Source: Trypanosoma brucei
Taxonomy: Eukaryota
Reading direction: 5' to 3'
Assembly: GCA_000002445.1 (NCBI GenBank)
Contig: CM000207.1
Location: 1,216,001-1,280,000 of the forward strand
DNA length: 64,000 nucleotides
The notes beneath the pieces are model-generated. The model worked only from the letters and a program-made list of their open reading frames with translations, was not told the DNA's origin and ran no database searches. The position numbers and the translations under genes were made by a program. Positions 28,398-56,056 of this stretch are shown in pieces. How positions within the stretch are numbered: the first letter of the stretch is position 1; each line of letters begins with the position of its first letter.

Positions 28398-29366
28398 TTA
28401 AAGAAAAAAGGAAAAAAATGAAATCACAAGTGCAAATAATTTTTCCACCATATCTACATTTCGGTTATAAGCATAAGCACCATCAAAGGGTTTCCTCCTC
28501 ATGTAAGATAACATTGGTAGCAACATTGTATCATCAAGAAGGCATTGCTCCCTCTGTGCTGCAGTAAGATTGAGCCATGAGTTTTCAAGATACATTTTGT
28601 CAAGTTCCGCCTTTACACTGGGAGTGCTGTAACATGTTTCGGCAGAGCAAACGGTGCAACTGCGTTTCTTCATTCCTTCCTCAAACATTTGCGTCATCGA
28701 ATTAAGATGTCTTTTCAGGTTGTAAAGAGAAGCATTTTTCATCCGCAGGATTTCTGTTGTGGAATTAATAATATGTTGGGTAATGCTGTCGTTGCACTGT
28801 TGCTTTGACTTGTCAATTTTTTTAATTTTCTCTTTGTTTGATGTTTGAAGGGTCGCAACTGTTTCAGTTGAATATGTTGCTTTTTTGCTGTTCTCGCTGC
28901 ATATTACTTCTTCTGCCTTTTTAATTATTATTTTTTTTGCTTGTATTTTTTCTTTCCATCGCTGGAGTTCAGCCTTCAAGTTCTTGACCTGTTGTTCATA
29001 GGGTTTTGTTTTTGTGATTACCGGTTTGTTGCACAAACCTCTCCCTTCCACTTCGTCTTGCAACAATTTGTGTTTTTGAACTAATTCGTCAAGGGTTTTC
29101 TCGTTACTGCACTTCCAAAGCTTAGGAACGTTGGAATAATCAATCAAATCACAGAAGACCCAGTTCTTCTCATGGCTGTACGATCCTCGAACTGTCAAAG
29201 AAAGCCTTATCATATGATCCGTGTAATCCTCCTCCATCCATTTTGTATAATCGCAAGAATCAGCGCTTGCCCATTCACTTAAGCGAGACATCAGTAGCAA
29301 AACTCCAAATAGCATTCGCATTTTCCTAACGTCCCTGCGGAAGATAACATGAAACAGAACATTCAT
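28398..29366 (-). CDS. Array unit 1, type B: surface protein paralogue with a C-terminal hydrophobic tail (GPI-anchor or tail-anchor signal). C-terminus CTVCSAETCYSTPSVKAELDKMYLENSW...KPFDGAYAYNRNVDMVEKLFALVISFFSFFL.
   Basis: ATG at 29364-29366. The signal-peptide ATG (MRMLFGVLLLMSRLSEWASA) is at 29319-29321 and is probably the real start. Conserved W[IV]FCD...LWKCSNEKTL motif. Coiled-coil middle. Confidence 0.7.
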   Translation of the reverse strand: MNVLFHVIFRRDVRKMRMLFGVLLLMSRLSEWASADSCDYTKWMEEDYTDHMIRLSLTVRGSYSHEKNWVFCDLIDYSNVPKLWKCSNEKTLDELVQKHKLLQDEVEGRGLCNKPVITKTKPYEQQVKNLKAELQRWKEKIQAKKIIIKKAEEVICSENSKKATYSTETVATLQTSNKEKIKKIDKSKQQCNDSITQHIINSTTEILRMKNASLYNLKRHLNSMTQMFEEGMKKRSCTVCSAETCYSTPSVKAELDKMYLENSWLNLTAAQREQCLLDDTMLLPMLSYMRRKPFDGAYAYNRNVDMVEKLFALVISFFSFFL

Positions 29367-29595
29367 TTATTTTGCCCAAAACACACCTGCATAAGAGGGG
29401 CAATATTTTCATCTAAAGGACAAAACCAACTGTACCGATTCGCAAAATGATAATACCATGATAATTAACTAACATGTATGATATCCATAAAAATTCCATT
29501 ATTATTTCACATGATGGAAAGAAACATCTGCTTAAACTAACAGATTAATAAGTAAGAAAAGATACAAACATAGCATATTTTATTTCCATAGCTGT

Positions 29596-30453
29596 TTACA
29601 TGTTTTCATTATATTTTGAATTATTCCCTTCAGTATCCTCATGTGGCGCCCCGCATTTAACACCTGATTTTGTCCATCCATCTTTTCCATATAATTTATC
29701 CAAATTTTCCTTTATGTGCACATCATCCCAACAAGTCCCAGCGTCACATGCGGGACAATTATTATTTCCAAGTTTTTCCAGCTGTTGTTCCTTCAGTTCT
29801 ATTGCTTTCTTCACACTTTCGATTTCTTTGTCCATTCTTTCTAGTTCAAGGTCGTATTCCACTTGCTTTTGTAGCTTTTTTTTTTTGCACTCTGTTGCCT
29901 CTTTTTCCGAAAGTGTGTCCAGCCGTGCACTTTCGTTCGTGAGGTCCCGTATCTTACCATCCTCTTGTGACATCGTTTTCATTTCCTTTTGGCACTTCTT
30001 CTTTTCTTGAACCTCCCGTGTACTCCCTTCTTGAAGTCTCGCATGCTCCTCCTTCGCCTCCTCAATTTGCTGCTGCAGTTGCGCCACCTGCTCTTTAAGA
30101 AGCCTCACTGAACTATCTACCTTCGCTTTGCAAACAGTTACGTCACCCACTTCACCGCTCCAGTTGAATTTGCTGGTTATGAGGCTTGTCGGATTATTGT
30201 TACTTGAAGTACCACAAAACCACAACAATTCACTTCCACCTTCCCTCCTTCCGCTGTTGTTGCATAACATCCACTTGTAATTTCCGTTCGCAAATTCATC
30301 AGCGTTTACTATCACGGCATGAATATCCTCCTCTCTTCCGTCTACTTCATACCTTCTCAAGGTGCAACCTTCTGCCTTCCCTTCCCCCCTCCCACTAAAA
30401 AGCAATAGCGTCATCCCCGCCCACAAGAACATAGCTTTCCCACGCCCTTTCAT
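29596..30453 (-). CDS. Array unit 1, type A: secreted coiled-coil protein with no C-terminal hydrophobic tail. Ends ...NCPACDAGTCWDDVHIKENLDKLYGKDGWTKSGVKCGAPHEDTEGNNSKYNENM.
   Basis: The track ORF 29596..30468 starts at GTG. The first ATG is at 30451-30453 (MKGRGKAMFLWAGMTLLLFSG, a signal peptide). Conserved KWMLCN, LWFC, NWS motifs and the C-terminal Cys motif. Several N-x-S/T sequons. Confidence 0.7.
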   Translation of the reverse strand: MKGRGKAMFLWAGMTLLLFSGRGEGKAEGCTLRRYEVDGREEDIHAVIVNADEFANGNYKWMLCNNSGRREGGSELLWFCGTSSNNNPTSLITSKFNWSGEVGDVTVCKAKVDSSVRLLKEQVAQLQQQIEEAKEEHARLQEGSTREVQEKKKCQKEMKTMSQEDGKIRDLTNESARLDTLSEKEATECKKKKLQKQVEYDLELERMDKEIESVKKAIELKEQQLEKLGNNNCPACDAGTCWDDVHIKENLDKLYGKDGWTKSGVKCGAPHEDTEGNNSKYNENM

Positions 30454-33016
30454 ATTGTAACTTTGCACTATATGCCTTTCAAAAACCTTGTTGTCCTTGT
30501 TAACAAATGCGTATATAAATCAAATGAAATAATGGCAACAGCGAGTGTTAATTATAGTGACGGCAGCTTCTTTTCTTACTCTGAAGTAGCACTGAATTTA
30601 TTTCTCCATTGACACACGGCACAATGGCAGGACACAAATAAAGCTGAAAGTAAAATTTAACAAAAATAATATGTGATCCAAATACCAAACGGGTGTGGCA
30701 CCATGCATATCCAAGTGCAAACCTTTCACAGAAGATATACACGAAATAAATGAACACACATTTTCTGATCATCACACGCATATGCATATCCTACATTAAT
30801 TTCAGTTAACAGTTTTTCTCCTTAGCGATCCCTACTTCATCCCCGCATGTCTCACATTTATGTTCCTCATAACCTACAACACATATCAGATGCGCTGCCA
30901 CTTCCATCCTACCACCACAAACTCACATCAAATCCCCTCCTTTTTCCCCTCCCTCTGCATAAAGTTGCAATTCAACAAATGCAGCAGCATCACAATTCTG
31001 GAGATTCCGGTAATGCGATCACCCTGAAGAACAATTAATATTAACGGGCTGCATCTCTCACTACAATTCCACATAACGACACACCCCATGAAATATGAGA
31101 ACTTTTGGTGACATTATATCGTTTGGCATTTCCTACCAACATTCAAAAGGATTTGCCACACATCACAATTAGTTGCTGTATATCGTAAAACACCGTGAAA
31201 TAGTGTAGCAGTACGAGAAAAGGGGAGTCTAGTCCCTCTCCCGTAACTTCATCATTTCAATAAATGCTAACAGTATTCACGACCCAATACAAAAGACAAG
31301 GAACAACAACATATGGGAGATTTTACAGAATCCCACTTCTCTGCATCACAGCATCACCCTCGATGGCTCCTACACCTCGAGTTGAAGTAGACATGATAAT
31401 TCATACAGGGGTCGAACGGAAAGATAACATATATATATGTATATACATAACATATGATACGTAATACGTAATACATATTCCAGCACTTTTGTTGCTATCC
31501 ACAGAGATTTGACATGTTGGGAAACAAAATATACAGAATCAACATTACTCCAATTGCATCAGCCTCACAACACATTCGAGCGAGGGAATTGTGTAGAACT
31601 CAAGTACTGGAAATGTGAGATGCCATAAACATGTAACGATTAAACTTGAAAACAAATGCAATCTGGAAGTAAGTGTAACTAATGTATGGAATGACTGGAA
31701 TTGTTGGAAATACAGAATTTAATATAACTAAAAATAATACGTGTATTTTCATGCCACACGGAATAAAAAATGTGATAGAATACAACAACAGTAACCACAG
31801 TGGCTGAAATTCAAATAACACAGTTAAGTCACAGTTGCAGCATAAACACTTCTGGAAAGACTCCATAAAGGGTAAGAAAACTAATCATATTTCAAAGACT
31901 CAATTAGGCGTGGAAGAGAAACGGCAACTGGTACAAAATTAATGTAACTGCAGGAACATAGTGACACCAAGTGGCCATAAACTCAAGCGCCTGATGTGAA
32001 ACCTCATCTCCTGAATCTTATTAGTAATGTGTAAAGAAAAAAGAAAGTAAAGAATCATTACACTCAATGCTTCTATCATTGCATATTTTGAATGTTTGTA
32101 AGTAAGCTAAGCTATTATATTGTGCGTATATTTATATTTTTTCTTCCCCTGGTAAAAGAGTAATGAATAAGAAGAGCTTATTCAAAAGAAAAATACTGAA
32201 GTGTAGTAGTGAAAACAACAATGCTTGCAGCAACTGAAAGAGCAGTGAGTGCACAAATGAATATGCTCATGCAATGCCTTCAACTTCACGCACGTTTAGC
32301 ATAATATGAGTTACAGAGGCATCACTTAGTAGAAAAAAATAATAAAGCGTGGAAAAATAATAATAATAATAATAATAGTGGTAATCGTAATACCAAAGAA
32401 ATAGAGGTTATAGGGGTGGCAATAATAGTAACAAATTTACTATATATGGAAAAGAAAGTGTCGTATTCTCGAAAGTAATAAAGAGAGTAATAAGAAAAGG
32501 AAGAAGTGCAACACTGAATATTTTACTGGTTGAAACTGATTCGAAGAGAACATGATATCAATAGAGTTGTAGGTGCTTCTCAATTCAGTAAAATGGTTGC
32601 GACCACACAAATATGTTTTCCCTCTCATGCACAAACTCTCCTTCCTTTCCTCTCTTTGTTTCTTACTCATATGCCTTCATTTTCTTATATTTTTGTTCTC
32701 ACTTTTCTAAACCTTCAATTCGCTTCGTTATAAAGCCACTCAAATCTCGAACTACCAGTTTTGATAAATGCACCATGTCGAGTAAAACTTCCCCATGAGG
32801 ACAGAAAACATGTTGACAAGAGGAGTGACATAATCATTCACTGGTTAGAGTCCACACTCGCAACAATGGAAAGAAATAAATCAGAAGTAAAACAACAAAG
32901 AGAAAAACAAATTATATGGAAACACCAGCTTTCCCATTCCTCTCTTATCGCCTCAATATATCTTTCTTTCTTTCCTTTCTCCCTACAAACATTTGCCTCT
33001 TTCCTATACTGATAAT

Positions 33017-33310
33017 TTATTGAGTTGGTTGCTGCTCACTTTGACACTGTGTAAAGATTTCCCATGCCCATTTACATGGTGCCGCATTGCCTTCATTTGC
33101 TTCCAAACATTTTGCATAAGTTTGGACATGAGCTGCACAGGCACCGTTACCAACTTGTTGTGCCACCTGTTGCAACTCAGTGGGTTGTGCAGGCGGGGCA
33201 TTGCGGTCGAAGAGCATATGTGAAATGCCGTGGCCAATGACGGAACCGGCTGCAACTGATGCCACATTTCCAAGGAGACCGCTACCCATTCCACCACGCA
33301 GCACGTACAC
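33017..33310 (-). pseudogene. N-terminally truncated CHCH-domain copy in array unit 2.
   Basis: The track start is GTG (33308-33310 reads cac). The conserved helix and twin Cx9C are intact. Confidence 0.6.
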
Positions 33311-34153
33311 ATTTGTTACCTGAGGTTGCGGTTGCTGAGCAGTTGTCTGGTGCGTGTTTTGATGCTGTTGTCGTGTGCCAAAGAAAATTATGAAATATAT
33401 CCAATAAGTGTTTCTGCAACGAATAAGTAAGGTTATGTGAAACTAAAACACATAAAAGGATCACTGCTTTCCATAGTTCCTGCATGAGCAGAGAATTGTT
33501 GGCACATAACATCTACTAACACTAGCCATACTGACAGCAACTTATTCCTCCTGCCCTCCATCCTTGCACACACACCTCACAGTAACCAGTAACACTTCAC
33601 AACTATTTTAAACATCTGGCTTATTGTCTCAACAAAAGTCAGAGGGTTAGTAACTTTCCTCGTGTCGCATGCGAGGTTGCTGCAAAATGCGAAGAGTTCC
33701 ACCTTATCGCACACACATATCAAATACAAAGAGTAATAATTAAGTAATGTCGCGTAACTGTTTTAGTTATAATTCAACGTGAAGTGTTACGGATCCTAAT
33801 TCCTTTCAGATTGGAAACCGCAAACCATACAGTCCTGCTTCTTGTTACAAGTCAAGTGGGACATGCTAATTGGATTCAACTTCAATTAATTCCGTCATTT
33901 GCAGGTAGCAATAACATCTATCCTAAGAATTGTTATTTGCATTTAAAGGGTGAAATTGAGTGCATTCAGATAAAACAAAATAAGACTCATAGCAACAGCA
34001 AAAAGAGACTCTTTAGGGTTTATGGCAAACACAATCAATGAACAAACACACTATACCATTAACACAATTAAATTCCAAATACTATAACACATGTATTCTG
34101 TTCCAAAAAGTTACAATAAGTATTATGGTAATCACATCATAAGATTATTCCGG

Positions 34154-35263
34154 TCAAATTAAAAAGCATAAAAATGAAATTAGAAGTGCAAATAGTTTTT
34201 CCATCATATCTACATTTTGGTTATAAGCATAAGCACCATCAAAGGGTTTCCTCCTCATGTAAGATAACATTGGTAGCAACATTGTATCATCAAGAAGGCA
34301 TTGCTCCCTCTGTGCTGCGGTAAGATTGAGCCATGAGTTTTCAAGATACATTTTGTCAAGTTCCGCCTTTACACTGGGAGTGCTGTAACATGTTTCGGCA
34401 GAGCAAGCGGTGCAACTGCGTTTCTTCATTCCTTCCTCAAAATTTCGTGTCAACGACTTTAACGTTTCCTTTAAGTCCTGGAGGGAAGCAAGTGCTGCAT
34501 TTATCCTTGTCTCTTGAGGACCGGCGATGTATTGCGTAATGTTTTTGTCGCATCGTTTCTTCTCCTTTGTGATGCTGGCTTGTTGTTCGTCAATATCTTC
34601 CTGTAGGCTCTCAATACTTGCACTCATTTCCTTTAATTTTGTAAGTTTATGATGGCATTTTCCGCTTTCCTCTTTCTTTTTGTCTTGTTCTCGTAGCACA
34701 GTGGCCACTTGATCTTCCTTCTTATTAAGTTCGATTTGCAAATCTGTAACTTTTTGTTTGTCCGCCCCCGTTTGGCTAGTTACTGTTATATTGCACAAAC
34801 CTCTTTTTTCTACTTCGTTTTGTAAAGGCTTGTTTTTCTCAACCAATTCATTTAGAGTTTTATCGTTGTCGCAGGTCCAAAGCTTAGGTTCCGTATCATG
34901 TTTCAGAGAATAGCAAAATATCCACGTTTTATCAACTTCAAAAAAATTTTCACTATTTGAAAAAAATCTCCTCCCGTAACCACTGTAATCATCTCCCCTC
35001 CACGTTACGTCACTGCATCGTTCATCACTTGCTCTCACAGTTAAGCAAAATATCAGCAACAATAATCCAAACAGTATTCGCATCTTCCTAATAATCTTAT
35101 AGCAGTTATCACGGAACAAAGCACGCATATATTTTTTCCATAAACACATTTGCATAAGAATAACCAAATTTACCATTAATGGAACAAAACCAACTGTACC
35201 GATTCGCAAAATGATATTATCATGATAATTAACTAACATGTATGATATCCATAAAAATTCCAT
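34154..35263 (-). CDS. Array unit 2, type B: surface protein with a C-terminal hydrophobic tail.
   Basis: ATG at 35261-35263 gives a 60 aa N-terminal extension. The signal-peptide ATG (MRILFGLLLLIFCLTVRA) is at 35081-35083 and is more plausible as the start. The C-terminal 90 aa are near-identical to the other B copies. Confidence 0.7.
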   Translation of the reverse strand: MEFLWISYMLVNYHDNIILRIGTVGFVPLMVNLVILMQMCLWKKYMRALFRDNCYKIIRKMRILFGLLLLIFCLTVRASDERCSDVTWRGDDYSGYGRRFFSNSENFFEVDKTWIFCYSLKHDTEPKLWTCDNDKTLNELVEKNKPLQNEVEKRGLCNITVTSQTGADKQKVTDLQIELNKKEDQVATVLREQDKKKEESGKCHHKLTKLKEMSASIESLQEDIDEQQASITKEKKRCDKNITQYIAGPQETRINAALASLQDLKETLKSLTRNFEEGMKKRSCTACSAETCYSTPSVKAELDKMYLENSWLNLTAAQREQCLLDDTMLLPMLSYMRRKPFDGAYAYNQNVDMMEKLFALLISFLCFLI

Positions 35264-35359
35264 TATTAATTCACATAGTGGAAAGAAATCTCTGCTGATA
35301 CTGACAGATTAATAAGTAAGAAAAGATACGAACCCAACATATTTTATTTCCATAACTGT

Positions 35360-36208
35360 TTACATGTTTTCATTATATTTTGAATTACTCTCCTCATTAC
35401 CCTCATGTGACACCCCGCATTTAACACCTGATTTTTTCCATCCATCTTTTCCATATAATTTATCCAAATTTTCCTTTATGTGCACATCATCCCAACAAGT
35501 CCCAGCGTCACATGCGGGACAATTATTATTTCCAAGTTTTTCCAGCTGTTGTTCCTTCAGCTCTATTGCTCTCTTAACGTATTGAATTTCATCTAAGACT
35601 TTCTCCAATCTCTCTTTGTAATTCCCCTCTGTCCATATTTTCCTGTTTTCACACTCTTTTTCTTCCTGTTTAAAAAGTGCATCCACTCGTTTTTTTTCAT
35701 CCTGAAGGCTCCTTACCTTGCCTTCGGAACCAGCCATTCTCCCAATATCCTCTTCGCACTGTTTCTTTTCTCGATCCACCTGTGTGCACGCTGCCCGAAG
35801 GCGCACAACTTCCTTGTCTTTCCCACCAATTCGCCCCCGTAGCTGTTCGGCTTCACGGTCTAGCTCCATCCGTCTCTCATGCACTTTCCTTTTACAAAAG
35901 GATATATCACCTCCACTACTCCAATTGAATCTGTTTGTAATGAGGTCTGTTGGTTGCTCATCGCTTGAAATATCACAAAGCCATAACATTTCATTTGCTC
36001 CACCTATTCTTTCGCTCCTGTTGCATATCATCCACTTATGATTTTTTACCAAGAGGTCATCATTAGCCTTCATCACAGCCACCTTATCATCAACCTCTCC
36101 ATCCTTTTGGATTCTAACACATTTGACAGCCTCCACCCTTTCTGTAAAAGCCAAAAACAATATCAACCCCGCCAAAGAAAAAAACATAAGTGTCCCATAC
36201 TCTTTCAT
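35360..36208 (-). CDS. Array unit 2, type A: secreted coiled-coil protein, 282 aa.
   Basis: ATG verified at 36206-36208 (MKEYGTLMFFSLAGLILFLAFT, a signal peptide). The C-terminus NCPACDAGTCWDDVHIKENLDKLYGKDGWKKSGVKCGVSHEGNEESNSKYNENM is almost identical to unit 1, but the central region is different. Confidence 0.75.
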   Translation of the reverse strand: MKEYGTLMFFSLAGLILFLAFTERVEAVKCVRIQKDGEVDDKVAVMKANDDLLVKNHKWMICNRSERIGGANEMLWLCDISSDEQPTDLITNRFNWSSGGDISFCKRKVHERRMELDREAEQLRGRIGGKDKEVVRLRAACTQVDREKKQCEEDIGRMAGSEGKVRSLQDEKKRVDALFKQEEKECENRKIWTEGNYKERLEKVLDEIQYVKRAIELKEQQLEKLGNNNCPACDAGTCWDDVHIKENLDKLYGKDGWKKSGVKCGVSHEGNEESNSKYNENM

Positions 36209-36330
36209 ATTGTTAGTTCACACTATATATCCTTCAAACACTTTCTTGTCCTTGTTAACAAATACATATACCCAAACCAAATGAAATAATAGCAACAGTG
36301 AGTGTTAACTATAGTGACAGCAGCTTCTTT

Positions 36331-36351
36331 TCTTACCTTACCTTACCTTAC
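36331..36351. repeat. (CTTAC)4 pentanucleotide microsatellite, present in every array unit just upstream (on the minus strand) of the type A gene.
   Basis: cttaccttaccttaccttacc at 36331-36351. Equivalent tracts occur near 42135, 47880 and 53610. Confidence 0.8.
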
Positions 36352-38804
36352 CGTGGCACTGAATCTGCTTCCTCATTGACACACGGCACAATGGCAAGAC
36401 ACAAATAAACTTAAAACTAAAAATTAACAAAAAATATATATGTGATCCAAATACAAAATAGGTACAACAACATGTGCATTCAAATGCAAACCTAACTCAG
36501 AAAAAATACACGAAATAAATGAACACATGTATTCCGATTAGCACACGCATATATGAATATCCTTTGTCAAAGTCAGTTAACAGTTTTTTCCCTTAGCAAT
36601 CCTTATTCCATCCCCGCATGTCTTAAATTCTATTTCCCACAGCCTACAACACATATCAGATGCGCTACCACTTCTATCCTAGTGCCACAAACTCACATTA
36701 ATCAAATTTCCTTCGTCACACCTCTTTCCTCTGCACGCAGTTAGAGTTCAACAAACGCAGCAGCATCATAACTCTAGAAATGCCGGTAATGCGATTAGTC
36801 TCAAGAACAAACAATTAATACTAACGGGCTGCATCTCTCACTACAATCCACATAACAACACACCCCATGAAATATGAGAACTTTTGGTGACATTATATCG
36901 TTTAGCATTTCCTACCAACATTCAAAAGGATTTGCCACACATCACAATTAGTTACTGTATATTATAAAGCATCGTGAAATGGTGTAGCAGTACGAGAAAA
37001 GGGGAGTCTCTAGTCCCTCTCCCGTAACTTCATCATTTCAATAAATGCTAACAGTATTCACGACCCCATACAAAAAACAAGGAACAACAACATATGGGAT
37101 ATTTTACTGAATCCCACTCTCTACACATCACAGTGTAACCTGAAATGCACTCTTCACTTCGAGCTGCAGTAAACATGATAATTCCCATAATGCTCAATGA
37201 AAAGATAACAGAAATATATAACATATGATAGGTAATACATGATATATATTCCAGCACTTTTGTTGCTATTCCCAGAGATTCAACATTTTAGGAAACAAAA
37301 TATACAGAATCAACATTACTCCAATTGTATCAGCCTAACAAGACACTGAATTGAGGAAATTGTGTGAAACTTAAGTACTGGAAATGCGAGATATCATAAA
37401 CATTCCACGATTGGACTCAATGAAAACAAATGCAATCTTAAAGTTAGTATAACTAATGCATGGAATGACTGGAATTGTTGGAAATGAAGAATTTAATATA
37501 ACTAAAAAAAAATAATAGTATTTTCATCCGATATGGGAGCAAATATGATAGAATACCACAACAGTAATCTCAGTAGTTGAGATGCCAATAACACAGTTAA
37601 GTCACAGTTGCAGCATAAACACTTCTGGAAAGACTCCATAAAGGGAAAGAAAACTAATCATATTTCGAAGACTCAATTAGGCGTGGAAGAGAAACGGCAA
37701 CTGGTACAAAATAAATGTAACTGCAGGAACGCAGTGACTCCAAGTGGACATAAACCTAAGGAACTGATGTGAAACCTCATCTCCTGAATCTTATTAGTAA
37801 TGTGTAAACAAAAAAAGAAAGCAAAGAATCATTACACTCAATGCTTCTGTCACTACATATTTTGAATGTTTGTAAGTAAGCTAAGCTATTATATTGTGCG
37901 TATATTTATATTTTTTCTTTCCTTACCAAAAGAGTAAGGAATAAGGAGAGCGTATTCAAAGGAAAGATACTGAAGTGTAGTAGTGAAAATAACAACTCTT
38001 GCAGCAACTGAAAGAGCAGTGAGGGCACAAATGAATATGCTCATGCAATGCCTTCAACTTCACGCACGTTTAGCATAATATGAGTTACAGAGGCATCACT
38101 TAGTAGAAAAAAATAATAAAGCGTGGAAAAATAAAAATAATAATAATAATAGTAATAGTGGTAATCGTAATACCAAAGAAAGAAAGAGGTTATAGGGGTG
38201 GCAATAATAGTAACAAATTTACTATATATGGAAAAGAAAGTGTCGTATTCTCGAAAGTAATAAAGAGAGTAGTAAGAAAATGAAGAAGTACAACACTGAA
38301 TATTTTACTGGTTGAAACTGATTCGAAGAGAGCATGATATCAATAGAGTTGTAGGTGCTTCTCAATTCAGTAAAATGGTTGCGGCCACACTAATATGTCT
38401 TCCCTCTCATGCACAAACTCTCCTTCCTTTCCTCTTTTTGTTTCTTACTCATATGCCTTCATTTCCATCTGATCTTCTTTATTCTCACATTTCTAAACCT
38501 TCACATCACTTCGTTACAAAATCACTCGAATCTCGAACTACCAGTTCTCATAAATGCACCATGTCGTGTAAAACTTTTCCATGAGACCAGAAAAAATATT
38601 GACAAGAGGAGTGATACAATCATTCACTGGTTAGAGGCCACACTCGCAACAATGGAAAGAAATAAATGAGAAGTAAAAAGAAGGACAAAGCGAAAAACAA
38701 ATTATAGGGAGACAGTAACTCTTCCATTTCTCCTCCATTGCCTCAATATATCTTTTTCTTTCCTTTGTCTCTACAAACATTTGCTCCTTTCCCATACTGA
38801 TAAT

Positions 38805-47775: not shown

Positions 47776-50303
47776 TATATATCCTTCAAACACTTTCTTG
47801 TCCTTACCATCAGATACACGTAAACAAAATGGAACAATAGCAACAGCGAGTGTTAATTATAGTGACAGCAGCTTCTTTTCTTACCTTACCTTACCTTACC
47901 GTGGCACTGAATCTGCTTCCTTATTAACATACTGCACCATCTCAAGACAGAAAATTGATACTAAAAATTAACAAAAAGAACATAGATGTGATCCAAATAT
48001 CAAATAAAGCACCATCCACACACAAGCGCAAGCCTTTCACAGAATAGATACACGAAATAAATGAACACACATTTTCTGATCATCACACGCATATGCATAT
48101 CCTACATTAATTTCAGTTAACAGCTTTTGTCGTTAGCAATCCTTATTCCATCCCCGTACGTCTTACACTCTATTTCCCACGGCCTACAACACATATCAGA
48201 TGCGCTACCACTTCTATCCTACCACCACAAACTCACATTAATCAAATCCCCTCCATTTTCTCTTCCCCGCACGCAATTAGGGTTCAGTAAACGCAGTAGC
48301 ATCACAACTCTGGAGATGAGAAATGCGATTAGTCTGAAGAACAAACAATAGGTACTAACGGGTTGTATATAAATGGTCACAGCTTCGTACAACAACATCT
48401 CATGCAAAATGAAAACTAGTGATGGTACTGCACCTTTCAGCATTTCTTACCAACATTCAAAAGGATTTGGCGCACTTCCTAATTAGTTACTGTATATCGT
48501 AAAACACCGTCAAATTGTTGTACGAGAAAAAGGGAGTCTCTAGTCCCTCTCCCGTAACTTCATCATTTCAATAAATGCTAACAGTATTCATGACACCATA
48601 CAAAAGACAAGGAACAACAACATATGGGAGATTTTACAGAATCCCACTTCTACACATCACAGTGTAACCTGAAATGCACTCTTCACTTCGAGCTGCAGTA
48701 AACATGATAATTCCCATAATGCTCAATGAAAAGATAACAGAAATATATAACATATGATAGTTAATACATGATATACATTCCAGCACTTTTGTTGCTATTC
48801 CCAGAGATTCTACATGTTAGGAAACAAAATATACAGAATCAACATTACTCCAATTGCATCAGCCTCACAACACATTCGAGCGAGGGAATTGTGTAGAACT
48901 CAAGCACTGGAAATGTGAGATGCCATAAACATGTAACGATTAAACTTGAAAACAAATGCAACCTGCAAGTAAGTATAACTAATGCATGGAATGACTGGAA
49001 TTGTTGGAAATGAAGAATTTAATATAACTAAAAAGAATACGAGTATTTTCACGCGATAATGAATAATACATGATAGAATAATTCAACAGTAATCTCAGTG
49101 GTTGAGATGCCAATAACACAGTTAAGTCACAGTTGCAGCATAAACACTTCTGGAAAGACTCCATAAAGGGTAAGAAAACTAATCATATTTCAAAGACTCA
49201 ATTAGGCGTGGAAGAGCAACGGCAACTGGTACAAAATTAATGTAACTGCAGGAACATAGTGACACCAAGTGGCCATAAACTCAAGGAACTGATGTGAAAC
49301 CTCATCTCCTGAATCTTATTAGTAATGTGTAAAGAAAAAAGAAAGTAAAGAATCATTACACTCAATGCTTCTATCATTGCATATTTTGAATGTTTGTAAG
49401 CAAGCTAAGCTATTATATTGTGCGTATATTTATATTTTTTTTTCCCCTGGTAAAAGAGTAATGAATGAGAAGAGCGTATTCAAAAGAAAAATACTGAAGT
49501 GTAGTGGTGAAAACAACAACTCTTGCAGCAACTGAAAGAGCAGTGAGTGCACAAATGAATATGCTCATGCATGTCTATCAAAATGTGAGATACAGAGGCA
49601 TCACTTAGTAGAAAAAAATAATAAAGTGTGGAATAATAATAATAATAATAGTGGTAATCGTAATACCAAAGGAAGAAAGAAATAAAGACAGGTAATAATG
49701 GTGTGGCAATAATAGTAATAAATTTACTATATATGGAAAAGAAAGTGTCGTATCCTCGAAAGTAATAAAGAGAGTAATAAGAAAAGGAAGAAGTGCAACA
49801 CTGAATATTTTACTGGTTGAAACTGATTCGAAGAGAACATGGTATCAGTAGAGTTGTAGGTGCTTCTCAATTCAGTAAAATGGTTGTGACCACACAAATA
49901 TGTTTTCCCTCTCATGCACAAACTCTCCTTCCTTTACTCTCTTTGTTTCTTACTCATATGCCTTCATTTTCTTATCTTTTTGTTCTCACTTTTCTAAACC
50001 TTCAATTCGCTTCGTTATAAAGCCACTCAAATCTCGAACTACCAGTTTTGATAAATGCACCATGTCGAGTAAAACTTCCCCATGAGGACAGAAAACATGT
50101 TGACAAGAGGAGTGACATAATCATTCACTGGTTAGAGTCCACACTCGCAACAATGGAAAGAAATAAATCAGAAGTAAAACAACAAAGAGAAAAACAAATT
50201 ATATGGAAACACCAGCTTTCCCATTCCTCTCTTATTGCCTCAATATATCTTTCTTTCTTTCCTTTCTCCCTACAAACATTTGCCTCTTTCCTATACTGAT
50301 AAT

Positions 50304-50591
50304 TTATTGAGTTGGTTGCTGCTCACTTTGACACTGTGTAAAGGTTTCCCATGCCCATTTACATGGTGCCGCATTGCCTTCATTTGCTTCCAAACATTTT
50401 GCATAAGTTTGGACATGAGCTGCACAGGCACCGTTACCAACTTGTTGTGTTACCTGTTGCAACTCAGTGGGTTGTGCAGGCGGGGCATTGCGGTCGAAGA
50501 GCATATGTGAAATGCCGTGTCCAATGACGGAACCGGCTGCAACTGATGCCACATTTCCAAGGAGACCGCTACCCATTCCACCACGCTGCAC
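50304..50591 (-). pseudogene. N-terminally truncated CHCH-domain copy carried in array unit 5 (no ATG at the ORF start; an internal ATG exists at the GGMGSG Met).
   Basis: Identical to the 3' ~280 nt of 56057..56503. The track 'M' is a GTG. Upstream sequence diverges from the ancestral copy at the repeat junction (gttttgatg|...). Confidence 0.6.
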
Positions 50592-51442
50592 GTATACATT
50601 TGTTACCTGAGGTTGCGGTTGCTGAGCAGTTGTCTGGTGTGTGTTTTGATGATGTTAGTGTGTGCCGAAGAAAATTATGAAATATATCCAATAAGTGTTT
50701 CTGCAACGAATAAGTAAGGTTATGTGAAACTAAAACACATAAAAGGATCACTGCTTTCCATAGTTCCTGCATGAGCAGAGAATTGTTGGCACATAACATC
50801 TACTAACACTAGCCATACTGACAGCAACTTATTCCTCCTGCCCTCCATCCTTGCACACACACCTCACAGTAACCAGTAACACCTCACAACTATTTTAAAC
50901 ATCTGGCTTATTGTCTCAACAGGGATCAGAGGGTTGATGACATTCCCTCTGTCACAAGCGGGGTTATCGCGACGGTAAGTTATTTCATTTTATCCACACA
51001 TATATCAAATACAAAAAGTAATAATTAAGTGATGTCGCGTAACTGTTTTAGTCATAATTCACTGTGGAGTTTTGCGACCTTCAATTTCTTTCGAATTGCG
51101 AGTTGGAGGCCATACTGTTCCTGCTTCTTGTTGCAAGTCAATTAGGACATGTTAATTGGATTCATCCTCCATAAGTTCTGGCATTTGCAGGTAACAACAC
51201 CAGCATTATTTCTAAAAATTGTTATTTGCATTCAAAGAGTGAAATAGAGTGCATTTGGATAAAATAAATTAAGTCTCATAGCAACAGCAAAAAGAGACTC
51301 TTTAGGGTTTATTACAAACACATTCAATGAACAAACACACTATACCATTAACACAATTAAATTCCAAATACTATAACACATGTATTCTGTTCCAAAAAGT
51401 TACAATAAGTATTATGGTAATCACATCATAAGGTTATCACGA

Positions 51443-52378
51443 TTAAAGAAAAAAGCATAAAAATGAAATTACAAGTGCAAATAATTTTTCCATCATATCT
51501 ACATTTCGGTTATAAGCATAAGCACCATCAAAGGGTTTCCTCCTCATGTAAGATAACATTGGTAGCAACATTGCATCATCGAGAAGGCATTGCTCTCTCT
51601 GTGCCGCAGTAAGATTGAGCCATGAGTTTTCAAGATACTTGTTGTCGAGTTCCGCCTTTACACTGGGAGTGTTGTAACATGTTTCAGCAGAGCAAGCGGT
51701 GCAGCTGTTTTTGTTCATTTCCTCCTGTAGCTCCTGTGTTACTGTCTTTACTTGTTGTTTTAAATGGTTGAGAAGTGCAGCTTTTTTTTCCAATGCTACC
51801 TCTAGAGGAGCAGTGATTTCCTTAATGTCGCTGTTGCACTGTTGGTTCTTCCTCTTTATTTTGTTTTCTTTTTCGCGATTGTAGGCTTCAAGGGTTGTAA
51901 CGGTTGCATTCGAATTCTTTAATTTTGTGAGCAATTGCTTGCATTCATTACTTGCGTTCGTCTTCGTTGTGTGGTTCAGTTTGAGGAGCTCTGTATCAGC
52001 TTTCTTTTTGTCAAGCTCAGTTTGCAAATCCGTAACATTTTTCACCTGTATCTTCGTTTCGGTAGTTATTGTTTCGTTGCACAAGTCTCCCTTAACCACT
52101 TCATTTCGTAAAGACTCGTGATCCTCAACCAATTCATTTAGAGTTTTTTCGTTGCTGCAGTTCCAATAAAAGGAAACATTCCGCCGTCTTCGTTCCAACT
52201 CATCACAAAATATCCACTTCTTATCACTTTCAAAAAATTCCTCTCCACCCTTGGAAGAGAGAGCTTCCATTGATTTATTTTTTCCTTCCTCCATCCATTT
52301 TGTATAAGCGCAAGAATCAGCGCCTGCCCATTCATTTAAGCGAGAAATGAGCAACAAAACTCCAACTATCGTTCGCAT
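51443..52378 (-). CDS. Array unit 5, type B: surface protein with a C-terminal hydrophobic tail.
   Basis: ATG verified at 52376-52378 (MRTIVGVLLLISRLNEWAGADS). C-terminus SCTACSAETCYNTPSVKAELDNKYLENSW...LFALVISFLCFFL. Confidence 0.75.
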   Translation of the reverse strand: MRTIVGVLLLISRLNEWAGADSCAYTKWMEEGKNKSMEALSSKGGEEFFESDKKWIFCDELERRRRNVSFYWNCSNEKTLNELVEDHESLRNEVVKGDLCNETITTETKIQVKNVTDLQTELDKKKADTELLKLNHTTKTNASNECKQLLTKLKNSNATVTTLEAYNREKENKIKRKNQQCNSDIKEITAPLEVALEKKAALLNHLKQQVKTVTQELQEEMNKNSCTACSAETCYNTPSVKAELDNKYLENSWLNLTAAQREQCLLDDAMLLPMLSYMRRKPFDGAYAYNRNVDMMEKLFALVISFLCFFL

Positions 52379-52635
52379 TTTCTTAATGCCCCTACAGCAG
52401 ATGATATGAAATAAAGCACGCGTATATATTTTCCATAAAACATTTGCATAAGAGCAGCAATATTTCCACCCAAGAACAAAGCCAACTGTACCGATTCACA
52501 AAATGATATTATAATGATAATTAACTAACATGTATGATATTCATAAAAATTCCATTATTATTTCACATGATGGAAAGAAATCTCTGCTGATACTGACAGA
52601 TTAATAAGTAAGAAAAAATACAAACATAACATATT

Positions 52636-53508
52636 TTATTTCCATAACTGTTTACATGCTTCCGTAACATTTTTAATGATTTCCCTAAATACTTTTGGAT
52701 AACACTTCACGTTTGACCCCGCATTCATCCATCCATCTCTTCCATATAGTTTATCCAACTCTTCCTTTATTTTCACATCATCCCAACAGGTCTCACCATC
52801 ACATGCGGGACACTCTTTATTCAACATAAGCATTTTCAATTGCTGCTTCTTTAGCTCCAATGTCTTATTCACATTTCTGATTTCTTCGTCCATTTTTTCA
52901 AGTTTACATTCGTATTCTTCCATCGCTTCATACTTCCCGTTTTCGCACTCTCTTGTCTCTTTTTCCATAAGCGTGTCCAGTCGTGCACTTTCTTTCGTAA
53001 GGTTCCATATCTTACCGTCCTCCTTAGTAACTATTCCAACCTCCTTCCAACATTCCTGTTTTGCTTGATCTGCCTCCTCACTCTCTGCTCGAAGACGCTT
53101 ATGCTCATTTTCTTCGTCGCCAATCATCTTCCGGAGTTCCGCTGCCTCCTTCTCAAGGTTCTCCTTCTTCTCCTGCACTTTTGTTTTGCAAACAGTTATG
53201 TTACTTACCTCACTGCTCCAGCTAAGTTTCTTCATGATGATACTTGTGGGATGTTCATTATTTGAGGCATCACAAAACCACTTAATTTTATTTCTCTCCT
53301 CCTTTGTCCCGCTGCTGTTGCATACCATCCACATCGGCTCAGAGCTCATAAAGTAATGACCGTTATCGATTTCAGCCACAACATCTCCTTCTTTGCCTTT
53401 TAAAGTGCAAATATCCGCGTCCACCCTCCCAGTGAAAACCAACAATATCACTCCCGCCAATGATAAAAACATAAGTGTCCCATACTCTTTCATATTGTCA
53501 CCTCGCAT
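52636..53508 (-). CDS. Array unit 5, type A: secreted coiled-coil protein whose C-terminal tail differs from the other A copies (...DGWMNAGSNVKCYPKVFREIIKNVTEACKQLWK).
   Basis: The track ORF starts at TTG (53565). ATGs are at 53506-53508 and 53491-53493 (MKEYGTLMFLSLAGVILLVFTG). The conserved KECPACDGETCWDDVKIKEELDKLYGRDGW is followed by a divergent tail. This is caused by indels relative to the other units (compare 52636-52760 with 41173-41290). Confidence 0.7.
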   Translation of the reverse strand: MRGDNMKEYGTLMFLSLAGVILLVFTGRVDADICTLKGKEGDVVAEIDNGHYFMSSEPMWMVCNSSGTKEERNKIKWFCDASNNEHPTSIIMKKLSWSSEVSNITVCKTKVQEKKENLEKEAAELRKMIGDEENEHKRLRAESEEADQAKQECWKEVGIVTKEDGKIWNLTKESARLDTLMEKETRECENGKYEAMEEYECKLEKMDEEIRNVNKTLELKKQQLKMLMLNKECPACDGETCWDDVKIKEELDKLYGRDGWMNAGSNVKCYPKVFREIIKNVTEACKQLWK

Positions 53509-56056
53509 TATATATCCTTCAAACACTTTCTTGTCCTTGTTAACAAATACATATACCCAAACCAAATGGAATAATAGAAACAGCGAGTGTTAATTATAGT
53601 GACAGCAGCTTCTTTTCTTACCTTACCTTACCTTACCGTGGCACCGAATCTGCTTCCTTATTAACATACTGCACCATCTCAAGACAGAAAATTGATACTA
53701 AAAATTAACAAAAAGAACATAGATGTGATCCAAATATCAAATAAAGCACCATCCACACACAAGCGCAAGCCTTTCACAGAATAGATACACGAAATAAATG
53801 AACACACATTTTCTGATCATCACACGCATATGCATATCCTACATTAATTTCAGTTAACAGCTTTTGTCGTTAGCAATCCTTATTCCATCCCCGTACGTCT
53901 TACACTCTATTTCCCACGGCCTACAACACATATCAGATGCGCTACCACTTCTATCCTACCACCACAAACTCACATTAATCAAATCCCCTCCATTTTCTCT
54001 TCCCCGCACGCAATTAGGGTTCAGTAAACGCAGTAGCATCACAATTCTGGAGATTCCGGTAATGCGATCACCCTGAAGAACAATTAATATTAACGGGCTG
54101 CATCTCTCACTACAATTCCACATAACGACACACCCCATGAAATATGAGAACTTTTGGTGACATTATATCGTTTGGCATTTCCTACCAACATTCAAAAGGA
54201 TTTGCCACACATCACAATTAGTTACTGTATATCGTAAAACACCGTGAAATAGTGTAGCAGTACGAGAAAAAGGGAGTCTCTAGTCCCTCTCCCGTAACTT
54301 CATCATTTCAATAAATGCTAACAGTGGCTATAACCCCAAACAGAAAAAACAAGGAACAACAACATATGGGATATTCGACTAAATCCCATCTCTCTGCATC
54401 ACAGTGTCACCTGGAATGCATCTTTCACCTCGAGTTGAAGTAAACAAAATAATTCCTACAGTATCGAATGGAAATATAACAGAAATGCATAACATATGAT
54501 AGGTAATACGTAATACATATTCCAGCACTTTTGTCACTATACGCGGAGATCTGACATGTTGGGAAACAAAATATACAACATCAACATTACTCCAATTGCA
54601 TCAGCCTCACAATACACTCAAGTGAAAGAAATGTAGAACTCAAGTACTGGAAATGCGAGATATCATAAACTTGCCACAGTTAAACTCAGTGAAAACAAAT
54701 GCAATCTGGAAGTAAGTGTAACTAATGTATGGAATGACTGGAATTGTTGGAAATACAGAATTTAATATAACTAAAAATAATACGTGTATTTTCATGCCAC
54801 ACGGAATAAAAAATGTGATAGAATACAACAACAGTAACCACAGTGGCTGAAATTCAAATAACACAGTTAAGTCACAGTTGCAGCATAAACACTTCTGGAA
54901 AGACTCCATAAAGGGAAAGAAAACTAATCATATTTCAAAGACTCAATTAGGCGTGGAAGAGAAACGGCAACTGGTACAAAATTAATGTAACTGCAGGAAC
55001 ATAGTGACACCAAGTGGCCATAAACTCAAGCGCCTGATGTGAAACCTCACCTCCTGAATCTTATTAGTAATGTGTAAACAAAAAAAGAAAGCATAGAATC
55101 ATTGCACTCAATGCTTCCATCATTGCATATTTTGAATGTTTGTAAGTAAGCTAAGCTATTATATTGTGCGTATATTTATATATTTTCTTCCCCTGGTAAA
55201 AGAGTAAGGAATGAGAAGAGCTTATTCAAGAAAAATACTGAAGTGTAGTGGTGAAAACAACAACTCTTGCAGCAACTGAAAGAGCAGTGAGCGTACAAAT
55301 GAATATGCTCATGCAATGCCTTCAACTTCACGCACGTTTAGCATAATGTGAGATACAGAGGCATCACTTAGTAGAAAAAAATAATAAAGTGTGGAATAAT
55401 AATAATAATAATAGTGGTAATTGTAATACCAAAGAAATAGAGGTTATAGGGGTGGCAATAATAGTAACAAATTTACTATATATGGAAAAGAAAGTGTCGT
55501 ATTCTCGAAAGTAATAAAGAGAGTAATAAGAAAAGGAAGAAGTGCAACACTGAATATTTTACTGGTTGAAACTGATTCGAAGAGAACATGGTATCAGTAG
55601 AGTTGTAGGTGCTTCTCAATTCAGTAAAATGGTTGTGACCACACAAATATGTTTTCCCTCTCATGCACAAACTCTCCTTCCTTTCCTCTTTTTATTTCTC
55701 ACTCATATGCCTTCATTTCCTTATCTTTTTCTTTGTTCTCACTTTTCTAAACCTTCACATCACTTCGTTACAAAGCCACTCAAATCTCGAACTACCAGTT
55801 TTGATAAATGCACCATGTCGAGTAAAACTTCCCCATGAGGACAGAAAACATGTTGACAAGAGGAGTGACATAATCATTCACTGGTTAGAGTCCACACTCG
55901 CAACAATGGAAAGAAATAAATCAGAAGTAAAACAACAAAGAGAAAAACAAATTATATGGAAACACCAGCTTTCCCATTCCTCTCTTATTGCCTCAATATA
56001 TCTTTCTTTCTTTCCTTTCTCCCTACAAACATTTGCCTCTTTCCTATACTGATAAT

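What the first reader, a model, noticed from the sequence alone, without database searches (positions are those of the whole stretch)
28398..53565. Mosaic conservation: termini and non-coding flanks are near-identical between units, but the central coiled-coil regions of both A and B are hypervariable
Across the five units the signal peptides, the first ~25 and last ~55 residues, and kilobases of intergenic DNA are almost identical. Spurious intergenic ORFs such as MLRILIPFRLETANH... are letter-for-letter identical at 33784, 39585 and 45330. In contrast the central ~180 residues are largely unalignable between units. Compare the A copies VLEEIQRIKDEEIQLSSKIVEQDMINKNLEILGAKAQETKQECQDQIEK..., VHERRMELDREAEQLRGRIGGKDKEVVRLRAACTQVDREKKQCEEDIGR... 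and VDSSVRLLKEQVAQLQQQIEEAKEEHARLQEGSTREVQEKKKCQKEMK.... Only the cysteines and a few heptad positions are kept. Non-coding DNA is more conserved than coding DNA. That pattern implies gene-conversion homogenisation of the flanks together with strong diversifying selection, or segmental replacement, on the exposed coiled-coil domain. This is the signature of antigenically variable or ligand-specificity-variable surface molecules.
Basis: seen in the sequence. Interest (0 to 1): 0.8.

Follow-up and report, generated by a model that had tools for sequence, protein, structure and literature searches.

The report
Trypanosome Fam7 surface-gene array mosaic
This is a known, uncharacterised five-unit tandem array of paired surface-protein genes in Trypanosoma brucei, whose gene ends and spacers are kept similar by recombination while the ectodomain-coding cores are old, deeply diverged versions, with no sign that they are being driven apart by positive selection.

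Summary
The window is T. brucei TREU927 chromosome 9. The feature is the published "Tb927.9.7950/7960 repeat" (array Tb85 of Jackson 2007; Fam7 of the 2013 cell-surface phylome).

The pattern is real but overstated:
- There are five units but only four distinct cassettes, because U3 and U4 are identical over about 4.5 kb.
- Spacers are 80-99% identical, not near-identical.
- The cores differ at 35-44% of bases, yet align almost without gaps (31-44% amino-acid identity, ten conserved cysteines, preserved heptad hydrophobicity).

- Synonymous sites in the cores are saturated (pS 0.53-0.76; four-fold sites differ 45-57%).
- Omega is 0.2-0.65, significantly below 1 in 10 of 12 pairs.
- Flank sites fall into blocks with incompatible groupings (P<1e-4), as expected from gene conversion or unequal crossing-over.
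- One short patch of another cassette type sits in an N-terminal head.

A and B are paralogues: A has no anchor and B carries a GPI signal. This suggests, but does not show, an ESAG6/7-style heterodimer. No relatives exist outside the T. brucei group. The pattern is largely already published, so interest is modest.

The parts
27515..56404 (-). Full extent of repeated DNA: five ~5.75-kb units, each made of a truncated CHCH remnant, spacer, A gene, B gene and ~0.9 kb of 3' flank
   Evidence: Self-BLAST; unit alignment; junction alignment
52636..53493 (-). U5 A gene (probably Tb927.9.7960, inferred from ID order): signal peptide, no C-terminal anchor signal, type-specific tail ...YPKVFREIIKNVTEACKQLWK. 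Variable core is about 52874-53447.
51443..52378 (-). U5 B gene (probably Tb927.9.7950, inferred from ID order): signal peptide and hydrophobic C-terminal GPI-type signal. Variable core is about 51710-52339; conserved C-terminal part is 51443-51710.
46918..47760 (-). U4 A gene, identical to the U3 A gene. Variable core is about 47138-47714.
45700..46641 (-). U4 B gene, identical to the U3 B gene. Variable core is about 45967-46602.
41173..42015 (-). U3 A gene. Variable core is about 41393-41969.
39955..40896 (-). U3 B gene (100% match to P0001, which carries two GenBank accessions for the two identical copies). Variable core is about 40222-40857.
35360..36208 (-). U2 A gene. Variable core is about 35580-36162.
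34154..35083 (-). U2 B gene. Variable core is about 34421-35044.
29596..30453 (-). U1 A gene. Variable core is about 29816-30410.
28398..29321 (-). U1 B gene. Variable core is about 28665-29282.
56057..56503 (-). Intact single-copy CHCH-domain gene (148 aa) just upstream of the array. Its 3' two-thirds form the start of every repeat unit.
50306..50653 (-). 5'-truncated CHCH remnant in the U5-U4 spacer
44563..44910 (-). 5'-truncated CHCH remnant in the U4-U3 spacer
38805..39182 (-). 5'-truncated CHCH remnant in the U3-U2 spacer. It still reads as a 125-aa ORF with a TTG start.
33017..33364 (-). 5'-truncated CHCH remnant in the U2-U1 spacer
27515..27589 (-). 75-bp stub of a further CHCH remnant, where the array ends downstream of U1
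39220..43708 (-). Segment of U3 that is 100% identical, apart from a few sites, to 44965-49453 in U4. This is either a very recent duplication or a conversion event, or an assembly duplication.
   Evidence: U3 vs U4 column

Best explanation
This is the T. brucei-specific Fam7 locus, the Tb927.9.7950/7960 repeat. It is a tandem array that grew by unequal crossing-over of a unit made of a truncated CHCH gene, spacer, A gene and B gene.

A and B are old paralogues with the same architecture:
- a signal peptide;
- a small cysteine-containing head;
- one or two very long amphipathic helices;
- a small cysteine-rich C-terminal module.
B ends in a GPI-addition signal and A does not.

The mosaic reflects two different coalescence ages within each unit. 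Unit ends (the last ~55-85 codons, the A-B spacer and the 3.7-kb intergenic DNA) are repeatedly exchanged between units by gene conversion or unequal crossing-over, so they stay at roughly 80-99% identity. The ectodomain-coding cores are ancient lineages that are saturated at synonymous sites. They no longer take part in long-tract exchange because they are too diverged to recombine, and possibly also because keeping distinct versions is favoured.

Within the cores, selection is on average purifying on the scaffold: open reading frames are intact, cysteines are kept and the heptad pattern is kept. Surface positions are weakly constrained. New head variants arise mainly from short conversion patches between cassette types, not from a burst of amino-acid-changing point mutations.

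Inferred, not shown: A and B pair through their long helices into a heterodimer tethered by B's single GPI anchor on bloodstream-form cells. The different cassettes would then give alternative binding or antigenic surfaces.
For: Identity of the locus:
- 100% match to TREU927 chromosome 9 proteins.
- Published as a 5x repeat of Tb927.9.7950/7960, as array Tb85 = Tb09.v1.0470 and as Fam7 = Tb09.v1.0540 with 10 members.

A and B are paralogues:
- tblastn gives 19-25% identity over ~255 aa, E 1e-11 to 1e-14.
- The joint alignment has ten invariant or near-invariant cysteines.

The cores are old and constrained:
- pS 0.53-0.76.
- Four-fold degenerate sites differ 45-57% in the cores, against 9% in the B C-terminus.
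- ML omega is 0.20-0.65 and significantly below 1 in 10 of 12 pairs.
- Hydrophobic periodicity of 3.5-3.6 residues, P<=0.001.
- All ten ORFs are intact.

The flanks exchange:
- Incompatible split blocks, P<1e-4.
- The nearest neighbour of a unit changes from segment to segment.
- Identity rises gradually at the core boundaries rather than in a step.

Origin by unequal crossing-over:
- Every spacer has the same 5'-truncated CHCH remnant, and a 75-bp stub follows U1.
- Copy number differs between strains. There is one pair in T. b. gambiense DAL972 and two pairs in T. b. equiperdum. One pair is published for T. evansi.

Patch exchange in the heads:
- The gambiense U5-type A gene has a U3-like run at codons ~45-61, P<2e-4.

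Surface location:
- B genes have published GPI, signal-peptide and N-glycosylation predictions.
- Published transcript data indicate that Fam4-7 are bloodstream-preferential.
Against: - Saturation of synonymous sites means that the omega estimates are averages with wide uncertainty. One pair (B U2 vs U5) gives omega of 0.97. A minority of positively selected sites would not be detected.
- Some close B alleles have omega of about 1 in the coil, though on very few substitutions.
- The flanks are not strongly homogenised. They differ by 2-22%, about ten times the divergence of neighbouring single-copy DNA between subspecies. Exchange is therefore occasional rather than continual.
- Nothing here shows that A and B bind each other, that they reach the surface, or that they bind any ligand.
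- The structure models are of low confidence (pLDDT 50 and 63, pTM about 0.26).
- Only one RT-PCR data point exists for a B gene, and it shows low expression.
Confidence: 0.7

Rival explanations
1. The units are recent duplicates whose exposed coiled-coil domains have been driven apart by strong positive (diversifying) selection on amino-acid changes. The flanks simply retain the original similarity or are homogenised.
For: - Coding cores are far more diverged than non-coding DNA.
- The proteins look like surface molecules.
- Omega of 0.2-0.65 is not low, and one pair reaches 0.97.
- A few close B-allele comparisons in the coil have omega of about 1.
Against: - Synonymous and four-fold degenerate sites in the cores are themselves near saturation. 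Selection on amino acids does not produce this.
- Omega is significantly below 1 in 10 of 12 pairs.
- Omega is also significantly below 1 in most head comparisons among close alleles.
Confidence: 0.1
2. Localised hypermutation. The ectodomain-coding cores experience a raised mutation rate, for example from error-prone repair linked to recombination. This would raise synonymous and non-synonymous divergence together, with no great age and no selection for diversity.
For: - Both dS and dN are high in the cores and fall towards the flanks.
- The whole repeated region, including non-coding DNA, is 7-25% diverged between T. b. brucei and T. b. gambiense, while adjacent single-copy DNA is 98-100% identical.
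Against: - The coiled-coil cores of U5-type alleles are 90-100% identical across four assemblies from different subspecies, so they are stable rather than hypermutating.
- Divergence among those alleles is concentrated in patches that match other cassette types.
- All ORFs stay intact at 2-4.7 substitutions per codon.
Confidence: 0.07
3. Flank similarity is due mainly to purifying selection on functional non-coding elements (UTR regulatory sequences, processing signals) and on the C-terminal anchor and cysteine module. It is not due to exchange between units, and the whole unit is equally old.
For: - The best conserved stretches coincide with the B C-terminus and its 3' flank, and with the CHCH remnant.
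- In trypanosomes, 3' UTRs control mRNA levels (established knowledge).
Against: - A truncated pseudogene remnant is among the best conserved parts.
- Synonymous sites in the B C-terminus are also nearly identical (dS 0.02-0.17).
- Informative sites form long blocks with conflicting groupings, and some segments are 99.4-100% identical between particular units. Constraint alone does not produce either pattern.
Confidence: 0.08
4. Part of the pattern is an assembly artefact. The identical U3/U4 pair, and possibly the unit count, may reflect mis-assembly of a repetitive region in the reference.
For: - U3 and U4 are 100% identical over ~4.5 kb.
- A T. equiperdum contig of this locus is visibly scrambled.
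- Old gene IDs carry the provisional 'v1' tag.
Against: - Outside the identical block, U3 and U4 differ at scattered sites.
- Read-depth analysis in a published study accepted a 5x repeat in TREU927.
- The four distinct cassettes and the mosaic do not depend on U4.
Confidence: 0.05

Closest known systems
Fam7 of the African-trypanosome cell-surface phylome (Jackson et al. 2013, PMC3605285), which is also array Tb85 / Tb09.v1.0470 (Jackson 2007, PMC1855330) and the Tb927.9.7950/7960 repeat (Carnes et al. 2015, PMC4288722)
   Same: It is this locus. The published family has 10 members in T. brucei, none in T. congolense or T. vivax, a signal peptide, a tandem arrangement and bloodstream-preferential transcripts. 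The published mean Ds of 0.557 and Dn of 0.267 give the same ratio (about 0.48) as found here. Copy-number differences between strains are also published.
   Different: The publications treat the ten genes as one family of hypothetical proteins. In the text I could read they do not describe:
- the A (no anchor) / B (GPI) pairing;
- the confinement of saturated divergence to the ectodomain core;
- the CHCH remnants;
- the head mosaics;
- the hyperdivergence of the whole repeat between subspecies.
Concerted evolution with coding regions more variable than non-coding regions in T. brucei tandem arrays (Jackson 2007), e.g. the BARP array
   Same: Same phenomenon. That survey reports that variation was typically greater in coding regions. 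For BARP the CDS distance was 0.335, against 0.073 and 0.038 for the UTRs. It also reports conflicting CDS and UTR phylogenies, and proposes gene conversion acting alongside divergence, with diverged parts escaping conversion.
   Different: The contrast here is more extreme (synonymous saturation in the cores). It affects two adjacent paralogous genes in each unit.
ESAG6/ESAG7 transferrin receptor of T. brucei
   Same: Adjacent paralogous genes. One encodes a GPI-anchored subunit and the other a shorter subunit without an anchor. Multiple variant copies exist, recombination occurs between copies, and expression is in the bloodstream stage (description).
   Different: - There is no detectable sequence or profile similarity to ESAG6/7, PAGs or VSGs.
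- The locus is chromosome-internal, not in a telomeric expression site.
- A and B are only ~20% identical, whereas ESAG6 and ESAG7 are close (p = 0.114 between ESAG6 and 7).
- Heterodimer formation and ligand binding are untested here.
VSG segmental (mosaic) gene conversion
   Same: Short patches copied between diverged family members create new combinations in the exposed N-terminal part, while conserved 3' ends and flanks provide homology (established knowledge of VSG switching; the patch evidence here is).
   Different: There are only four to five donors, all in one array. There is no evidence of expression-linked switching, no 70-bp repeats and no telomeric site. The proteins are not VSG homologues by any test run here.

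Membership tests
Fam7 (T. brucei-specific cell-surface phylome family; Tb927.9.7950/7960 repeat) | Sequence identity to the TREU927 chromosome 9 genes listed for the family | tested here: met
   100% identity and coverage to TREU927 proteins on a 3,057,547-bp contig. Neighbouring genes match published IDs around Tb927.9.7770-.8000.
Fam7 (T. brucei-specific cell-surface phylome family; Tb927.9.7950/7960 repeat) | Ten members in tandem, with a signal peptide | tested here: met
   Five A and five B ORFs, each with an N-terminal hydrophobic leader. Table S1 lists 10 members and a signal peptide.
Fam7 (T. brucei-specific cell-surface phylome family; Tb927.9.7950/7960 repeat) | No homologues outside the T. 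brucei group | tested here: met
   A profile search of 1.84 billion representatives returned only the A and B representatives. Word-indexed searches returned only T. brucei subspecies and T. equiperdum.
ESAG6/7-type heterodimeric GPI-anchored receptor | Adjacent paralogous genes, one with and one without a GPI-addition signal | tested here: met
   A and B are paralogues. B ends in a hydrophobic tail with a published GPI prediction. A ends in a hydrophilic tail.
ESAG6/7-type heterodimeric GPI-anchored receptor | Homology to ESAG6/7, PAG or a-type VSG N-terminal domains | tested here: not met
   No Pfam family reached its threshold. The profile search against PDB sequences gave only generic coiled coils. 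Fold searches were uninformative on low-confidence models.
ESAG6/7-type heterodimeric GPI-anchored receptor | Location in a telomeric bloodstream expression site | tested here: not met
   The array lies between housekeeping genes in a chromosome-internal, same-strand gene run.
ESAG6/7-type heterodimeric GPI-anchored receptor | Physical A-B heterodimer that binds a host ligand | not testable with these tools
   The only indirect hints are long amphipathic helices and strict A-B pairing across strains.
Genes under positive diversifying selection | dN/dS above 1 in the variable region | tested here: not met
   NG86 omega is 0.19-0.59. ML omega is 0.20-0.65 in 11 of 12 pairs and significantly below 1 in 10 of 12. 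Omega is 0.2-0.5 in heads of close alleles. Site-level tests were not possible.
Concerted evolution by gene conversion or unequal crossing-over | Spatially clustered, mutually incompatible phylogenetic signal between repeats | tested here: met
   232 two-by-two informative flank sites gave 198 adjacent-same pairs against 102 +/- 6 expected, with 0 of 10,000 permutations reaching the observed value. Segment distance matrices agree.
Coiled-coil / long amphipathic-helix ectodomain | Heptad-type (about 3.5-residue) hydrophobic periodicity over the central region | tested here: met
   The top period is 3.5 in A and 3.6 in B, permutation P<=0.001. Long helices are predicted at residues 104-222 in A and at 90-140 and 151-225 in B.

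The most novel reading that the evidence does not exclude
Fam7 A/B pairs could form a second, independently evolved ESAG6/7-like system. This would be a heterodimer held by one GPI anchor on bloodstream forms. Its old, recombining head and coil cassettes would give alternative specificities for a host ligand, or alternative antigenic faces. Array size (one pair in T. b. gambiense and T. evansi, two in T. b. equiperdum, five in TREU927) would then tune host range or immune evasion.
Probability: 0.15. Interest if true: 0.7.

Novelty: already known. Interest (0 to 1): 0.3.

Why it matters
The locus is a clean, compact example of how a parasite keeps several very different versions of a surface protein side by side while recombination keeps the gene ends and spacers similar. 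It also shows why coding DNA that is more diverged than its flanks is not in itself evidence for positive selection.

The practical value is as a lead. Fam7 is a T. brucei-specific, bloodstream-preferential family of unknown function. Copy number differs between subspecies, and an anchor-less and a GPI-anchored gene are always paired. If the two proteins form a receptor-like heterodimer, the family would be worth testing for host-ligand binding. The evolutionary pattern itself was already described in general terms, and this array was catalogued with its dN and dS, in 2007.

Tried and rejected
- **Pfam scan of all A, B and CHCH proteins:** nothing reached threshold for A or B. There were only weak coiled-coil-type noise hits. 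CHCH/COX6B-like hits for the spacer ORF identified it as a gene remnant.
- **Structure prediction with a 12-sequence alignment:** low confidence (pLDDT 50 and 63), so the models are used only for secondary structure.
- **Profile search against PDB sequences:** only coiled-coil proteins. No VSG, ESAG6/7, ISG, HpHbR or GARP hits.
- **Profile search of 1.84 billion representatives:** no distant relatives.
- **Exact look-ups of the U2 and U3 B proteins in other assemblies:** not on record. I could not test whether those cassettes are shared by other strains.
- **Rfam and tandem-repeat scans of the spacers:** nothing.
- **Emes and Yang 2008 positive-selection survey:** this family is not identifiable in the text or the held supplement.
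- **Stumpy-form up-regulation of Tb09.v1.0490:** I considered it as expression evidence and rejected it. By ID order that gene is probably the CHCH-remnant ORF at 38805-39182, not an A or B gene.
- **A search for later work on 'Fam7':** nothing relevant.

Full report
**What the locus is**

- The window matches T. brucei brucei TREU927 chromosome 9. The B protein of unit 3 and the A protein of unit 5 are 100% identical to TREU927 entries on a 3,057,547-bp contig.
- The neighbours are ordinary chromosome-internal genes, including a spermidine synthase-like ORF, a ubiquitin-conjugating enzyme, a CHCH-domain protein and an ingi-type retroelement.
- The literature places the array as follows:
  - the "Tb927.9.7950/Tb927.9.7960 repeat", described as a 5x repeat in TREU927 and a single copy in T. 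evansi STIB805 and T. b. gambiense DAL972 (PMC4288722);
  - array Tb85 (Tb09.v1.0470) of Jackson's 2007 survey, with mean Ds 0.5568 and Dn 0.2667 (PMC1855330);
  - Fam7 of the 2013 cell-surface phylome, with 10 members in T. brucei, none in T. congolense or T. vivax, a signal peptide and higher transcript signal in bloodstream than procyclic forms (PMC3605285).
- The B genes were listed as predicted GPI-anchored, signal-peptide-bearing, N-glycosylated proteins. One of them was detected at low level in proventricular and bloodstream parasites (PMC3378594).
- I found no functional study.

**Anatomy**

- All genes are on the minus strand.
- Self-comparison gives five ~5.75-kb units. Repeated DNA extends from 27515 to 56404.
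- Each unit carries an upstream A gene (280-285 aa from the MKEYG/MKGRG start) and a downstream B gene (307-313 aa).
- Each 3.7-kb spacer starts with ~0.9 kb of B 3' flank, joined to a copy of the CHCH gene that lacks its first ~33 codons. The intact CHCH gene sits just upstream of unit 5, and a 75-bp stub of a sixth remnant follows unit 1. This junction is the signature of growth by unequal crossing-over.
- A and B are paralogues of each other:
  - tblastn gives 19-25% identity over ~255 residues, E 1e-11 to 1e-14;
  - the joint alignment has ten invariant or near-invariant cysteines.
- B ends in a conserved 60-residue extension and a hydrophobic tail. A ends in a short hydrophilic tail.
- AlphaFold2 models are of low confidence (pLDDT 50 and 63). 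Both show a signal peptide, short N-terminal strands, one helix (A, residues 104-222) or two helices (B, 90-140 and 151-225) of unusual length, and a small C-terminal module.
- Mean hydrophobicity across variants has a 3.5-3.6-residue period in the central region, permutation P<=0.001.

**Checking the observation**

- I aligned whole units and excluded the duplicate U4. Mean pairwise identity was:
  - 0.80-0.99 across the spacer;
  - 0.49-0.63 from just inside the A signal peptide to about codon 215;
  - 0.80-0.90 over the A C-terminus and the A-B spacer;
  - 0.51-0.69 in B up to about codon 230;
  - 0.93-0.98 over the B C-terminus and 3' flank.
- The pattern is therefore real.
- It is overstated in the five ways listed in the observation check:
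  - U3 and U4 are identical over ~4.5 kb, and GenBank lists two accessions for one B sequence;
  - the spacers are 78-98% identical depending on segment and pair;
  - the signal peptides and the A C-termini are only moderately conserved;
  - the variable region includes the N-terminal head;
  - the cores align colinearly, with few indels and conserved cysteines.
- The quoted plus-strand ORF exists at all three positions. Over the stretch examined, the copies differ at one synonymous base and one amino acid.

**Testing the interpretation**

- In the cores:
  - Nei-Gojobori synonymous differences are 0.53-0.76 per site (dS 0.9 to undefined), dN is 0.41-0.59 and omega is 0.19-0.59;
  - as an alignment-robust check, among codons whose first two bases match, four-fold degenerate third positions differ in 45% (A) and 57% (B) of cases, against 9% in the B C-terminus;
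  - pairwise GY94 (F3x4) maximum likelihood gives 1.9-4.7 substitutions per codon;
  - ML omega is 0.20-0.65 in 11 of 12 pairs and 0.97 in one, and omega = 1 is rejected in 10 of 12.
- The cores are therefore deeply diverged at silent sites as well. Selection on amino acids cannot produce that. On average they are under purifying selection.
- Site-level positive selection cannot be tested with this few sequences and this much saturation.

**Evidence for exchange in the flanks**

- Among 232 two-by-two informative sites outside the cores, the three possible groupings of U1, U2, U3 and U5 occur in long blocks. For example, U1+U5 against U2+U3 dominates the B 3' flank, and U1+U2 against U3+U5 dominates the 500 bp upstream of A.
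- There are 198 adjacent-same pairs against 102 +/- 6 under permutation, and 0 of 10,000 shuffles reached the observed value.
- The closest pair of units changes from segment to segment, with some segments 99.4-100% identical between particular units.
- Identity rises gradually over 100-150 bp at the core boundaries. This is what conversion tracts ending at varied points would give.

**Other strains**

- T. b. gambiense DAL972 has one A-B pair and T. b. equiperdum has two. All are of the U5 type, 82-85% identical in protein to TREU927 U5.
- T. equiperdum OVI has a U5-type B (89%) and a B of a further type (60% to U3).
- Among U5-type alleles the coil is 90-100% identical in nucleotides. The N-terminal head (codons ~21-110) has dS 0.45-0.76 with omega 0.2-0.5, mostly significantly below 1.
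- The gambiense A head contains a run of U3-type sites at codons ~45-61, permutation P<2e-4. Head variation therefore comes at least partly from short patches copied between cassette types.
- Between TREU927 and gambiense, flanking single-copy DNA is 98-100% identical. Identity drops to 75-93% from the repeated part of the CHCH gene onward, and this includes the non-coding DNA.
- The whole repeat is therefore much more diverged between subspecies than the surrounding genome. The copies being compared are effectively paralogous mosaics of old lineages. The flanks are "conserved" only relative to the cores.

**Comparison with what is known**

- Jackson (2007) already reported that in T. brucei tandem arrays "variation was typically ... 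greater in coding regions". That paper also reported that CDS and UTR trees conflict, and that gene conversion can homogenise arrays while diverged parts escape it. This array is in that survey.
- The finding is therefore a detailed instance of a published pattern at a catalogued locus.
- The following appear not to be described in the text I could read:
  - the A (anchor-less) / B (GPI) pairing;
  - the restriction of saturated divergence to the ectodomain;
  - the CHCH remnants;
  - the head patches;
  - the hyperdivergence of the whole repeat between subspecies.
- The A/B arrangement resembles ESAG6/ESAG7, but homology to that family or to VSGs was tested and not found. The locus is also not telomeric.

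**Verdict**

Segmental exchange between old cassettes fits better.
- Confidence in the evolutionary account is about 0.7. The heterodimeric surface-receptor idea is an inference, with a probability of perhaps 0.15-0.35 depending on how specific the claim is.
- Interest is modest (0.3), because the locus and the general pattern are published.

Noticed in passing
window 21589-25509 (+): An ingi-type non-LTR retrotransposon with reverse-transcriptase, RNase H-like and zinc-finger ORFs split into three frames (590, 313 and 575 aa). It lies ~2 kb beyond the end of the array. T. b. gambiense has a much shorter interval between the B gene and the downstream 200-aa gene.
   Followed up: partly
window 38805-39182 (-); also 33017-33364, 44563-44910, 50306-50653 and 27515-27589: Every repeat unit carries a 5'-truncated copy of the upstream CHCH-domain gene (56057-56503). 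One copy is still an open 125-aa frame. By ID order it is probably the annotated Tb09.v1.0490, so microarray signal reported for that ID may be cross-hybridisation from the real CHCH gene.
   Followed up: partly
window 39220-43708 vs 44965-49453: Units 3 and 4 are 100% identical over ~4.5 kb but differ at scattered sites in the rest of the spacer. Over the 3' flank of B, U4 is identical or nearly identical to U2 (distance 0.000-0.005). This points to a very recent conversion or duplication, or to an assembly problem.
   Followed up: partly
window 52636-52700 (-), and L001 and L002 A genes: The U5-type A protein has a different C-terminal tail (...VKCYPKVFREIIKNVTEACKQLWK) from the other A types (...GVSHEDTEGNHSKYNENM). 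This tail is conserved in T. b. gambiense and T. b. equiperdum, so it is a type-specific feature and not a frameshift error.
   Followed up: partly
window 50721-56400 vs L001 7030-12777: Between T. b. brucei and T. b. gambiense, identity falls from 98-100% in the flanking genes to 75-93% throughout the repeated region, non-coding DNA included.
   Followed up: yes
L004 (T. equiperdum OVI contig CZPT02001880.1) 370-2356: This 4.2-kb contig contains overlapping partial A and B fragments in a scrambled order upstream of an intact U5-type B gene. It is probably a mis-assembly of the repeat.
   Followed up: no
window 51443-52378 (-): The U5 B protein has nine N-x-S/T sequons, against three to five in the other B types. 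Several fall in the coil region.
   Followed up: no
P0005 (T. equiperdum TEOVI_000408800): UniRef names this B homologue 'Trypanosomal VSG domain containing protein'. No Pfam VSG family and no solved VSG structure matched in the searches run here.
   Followed up: partly
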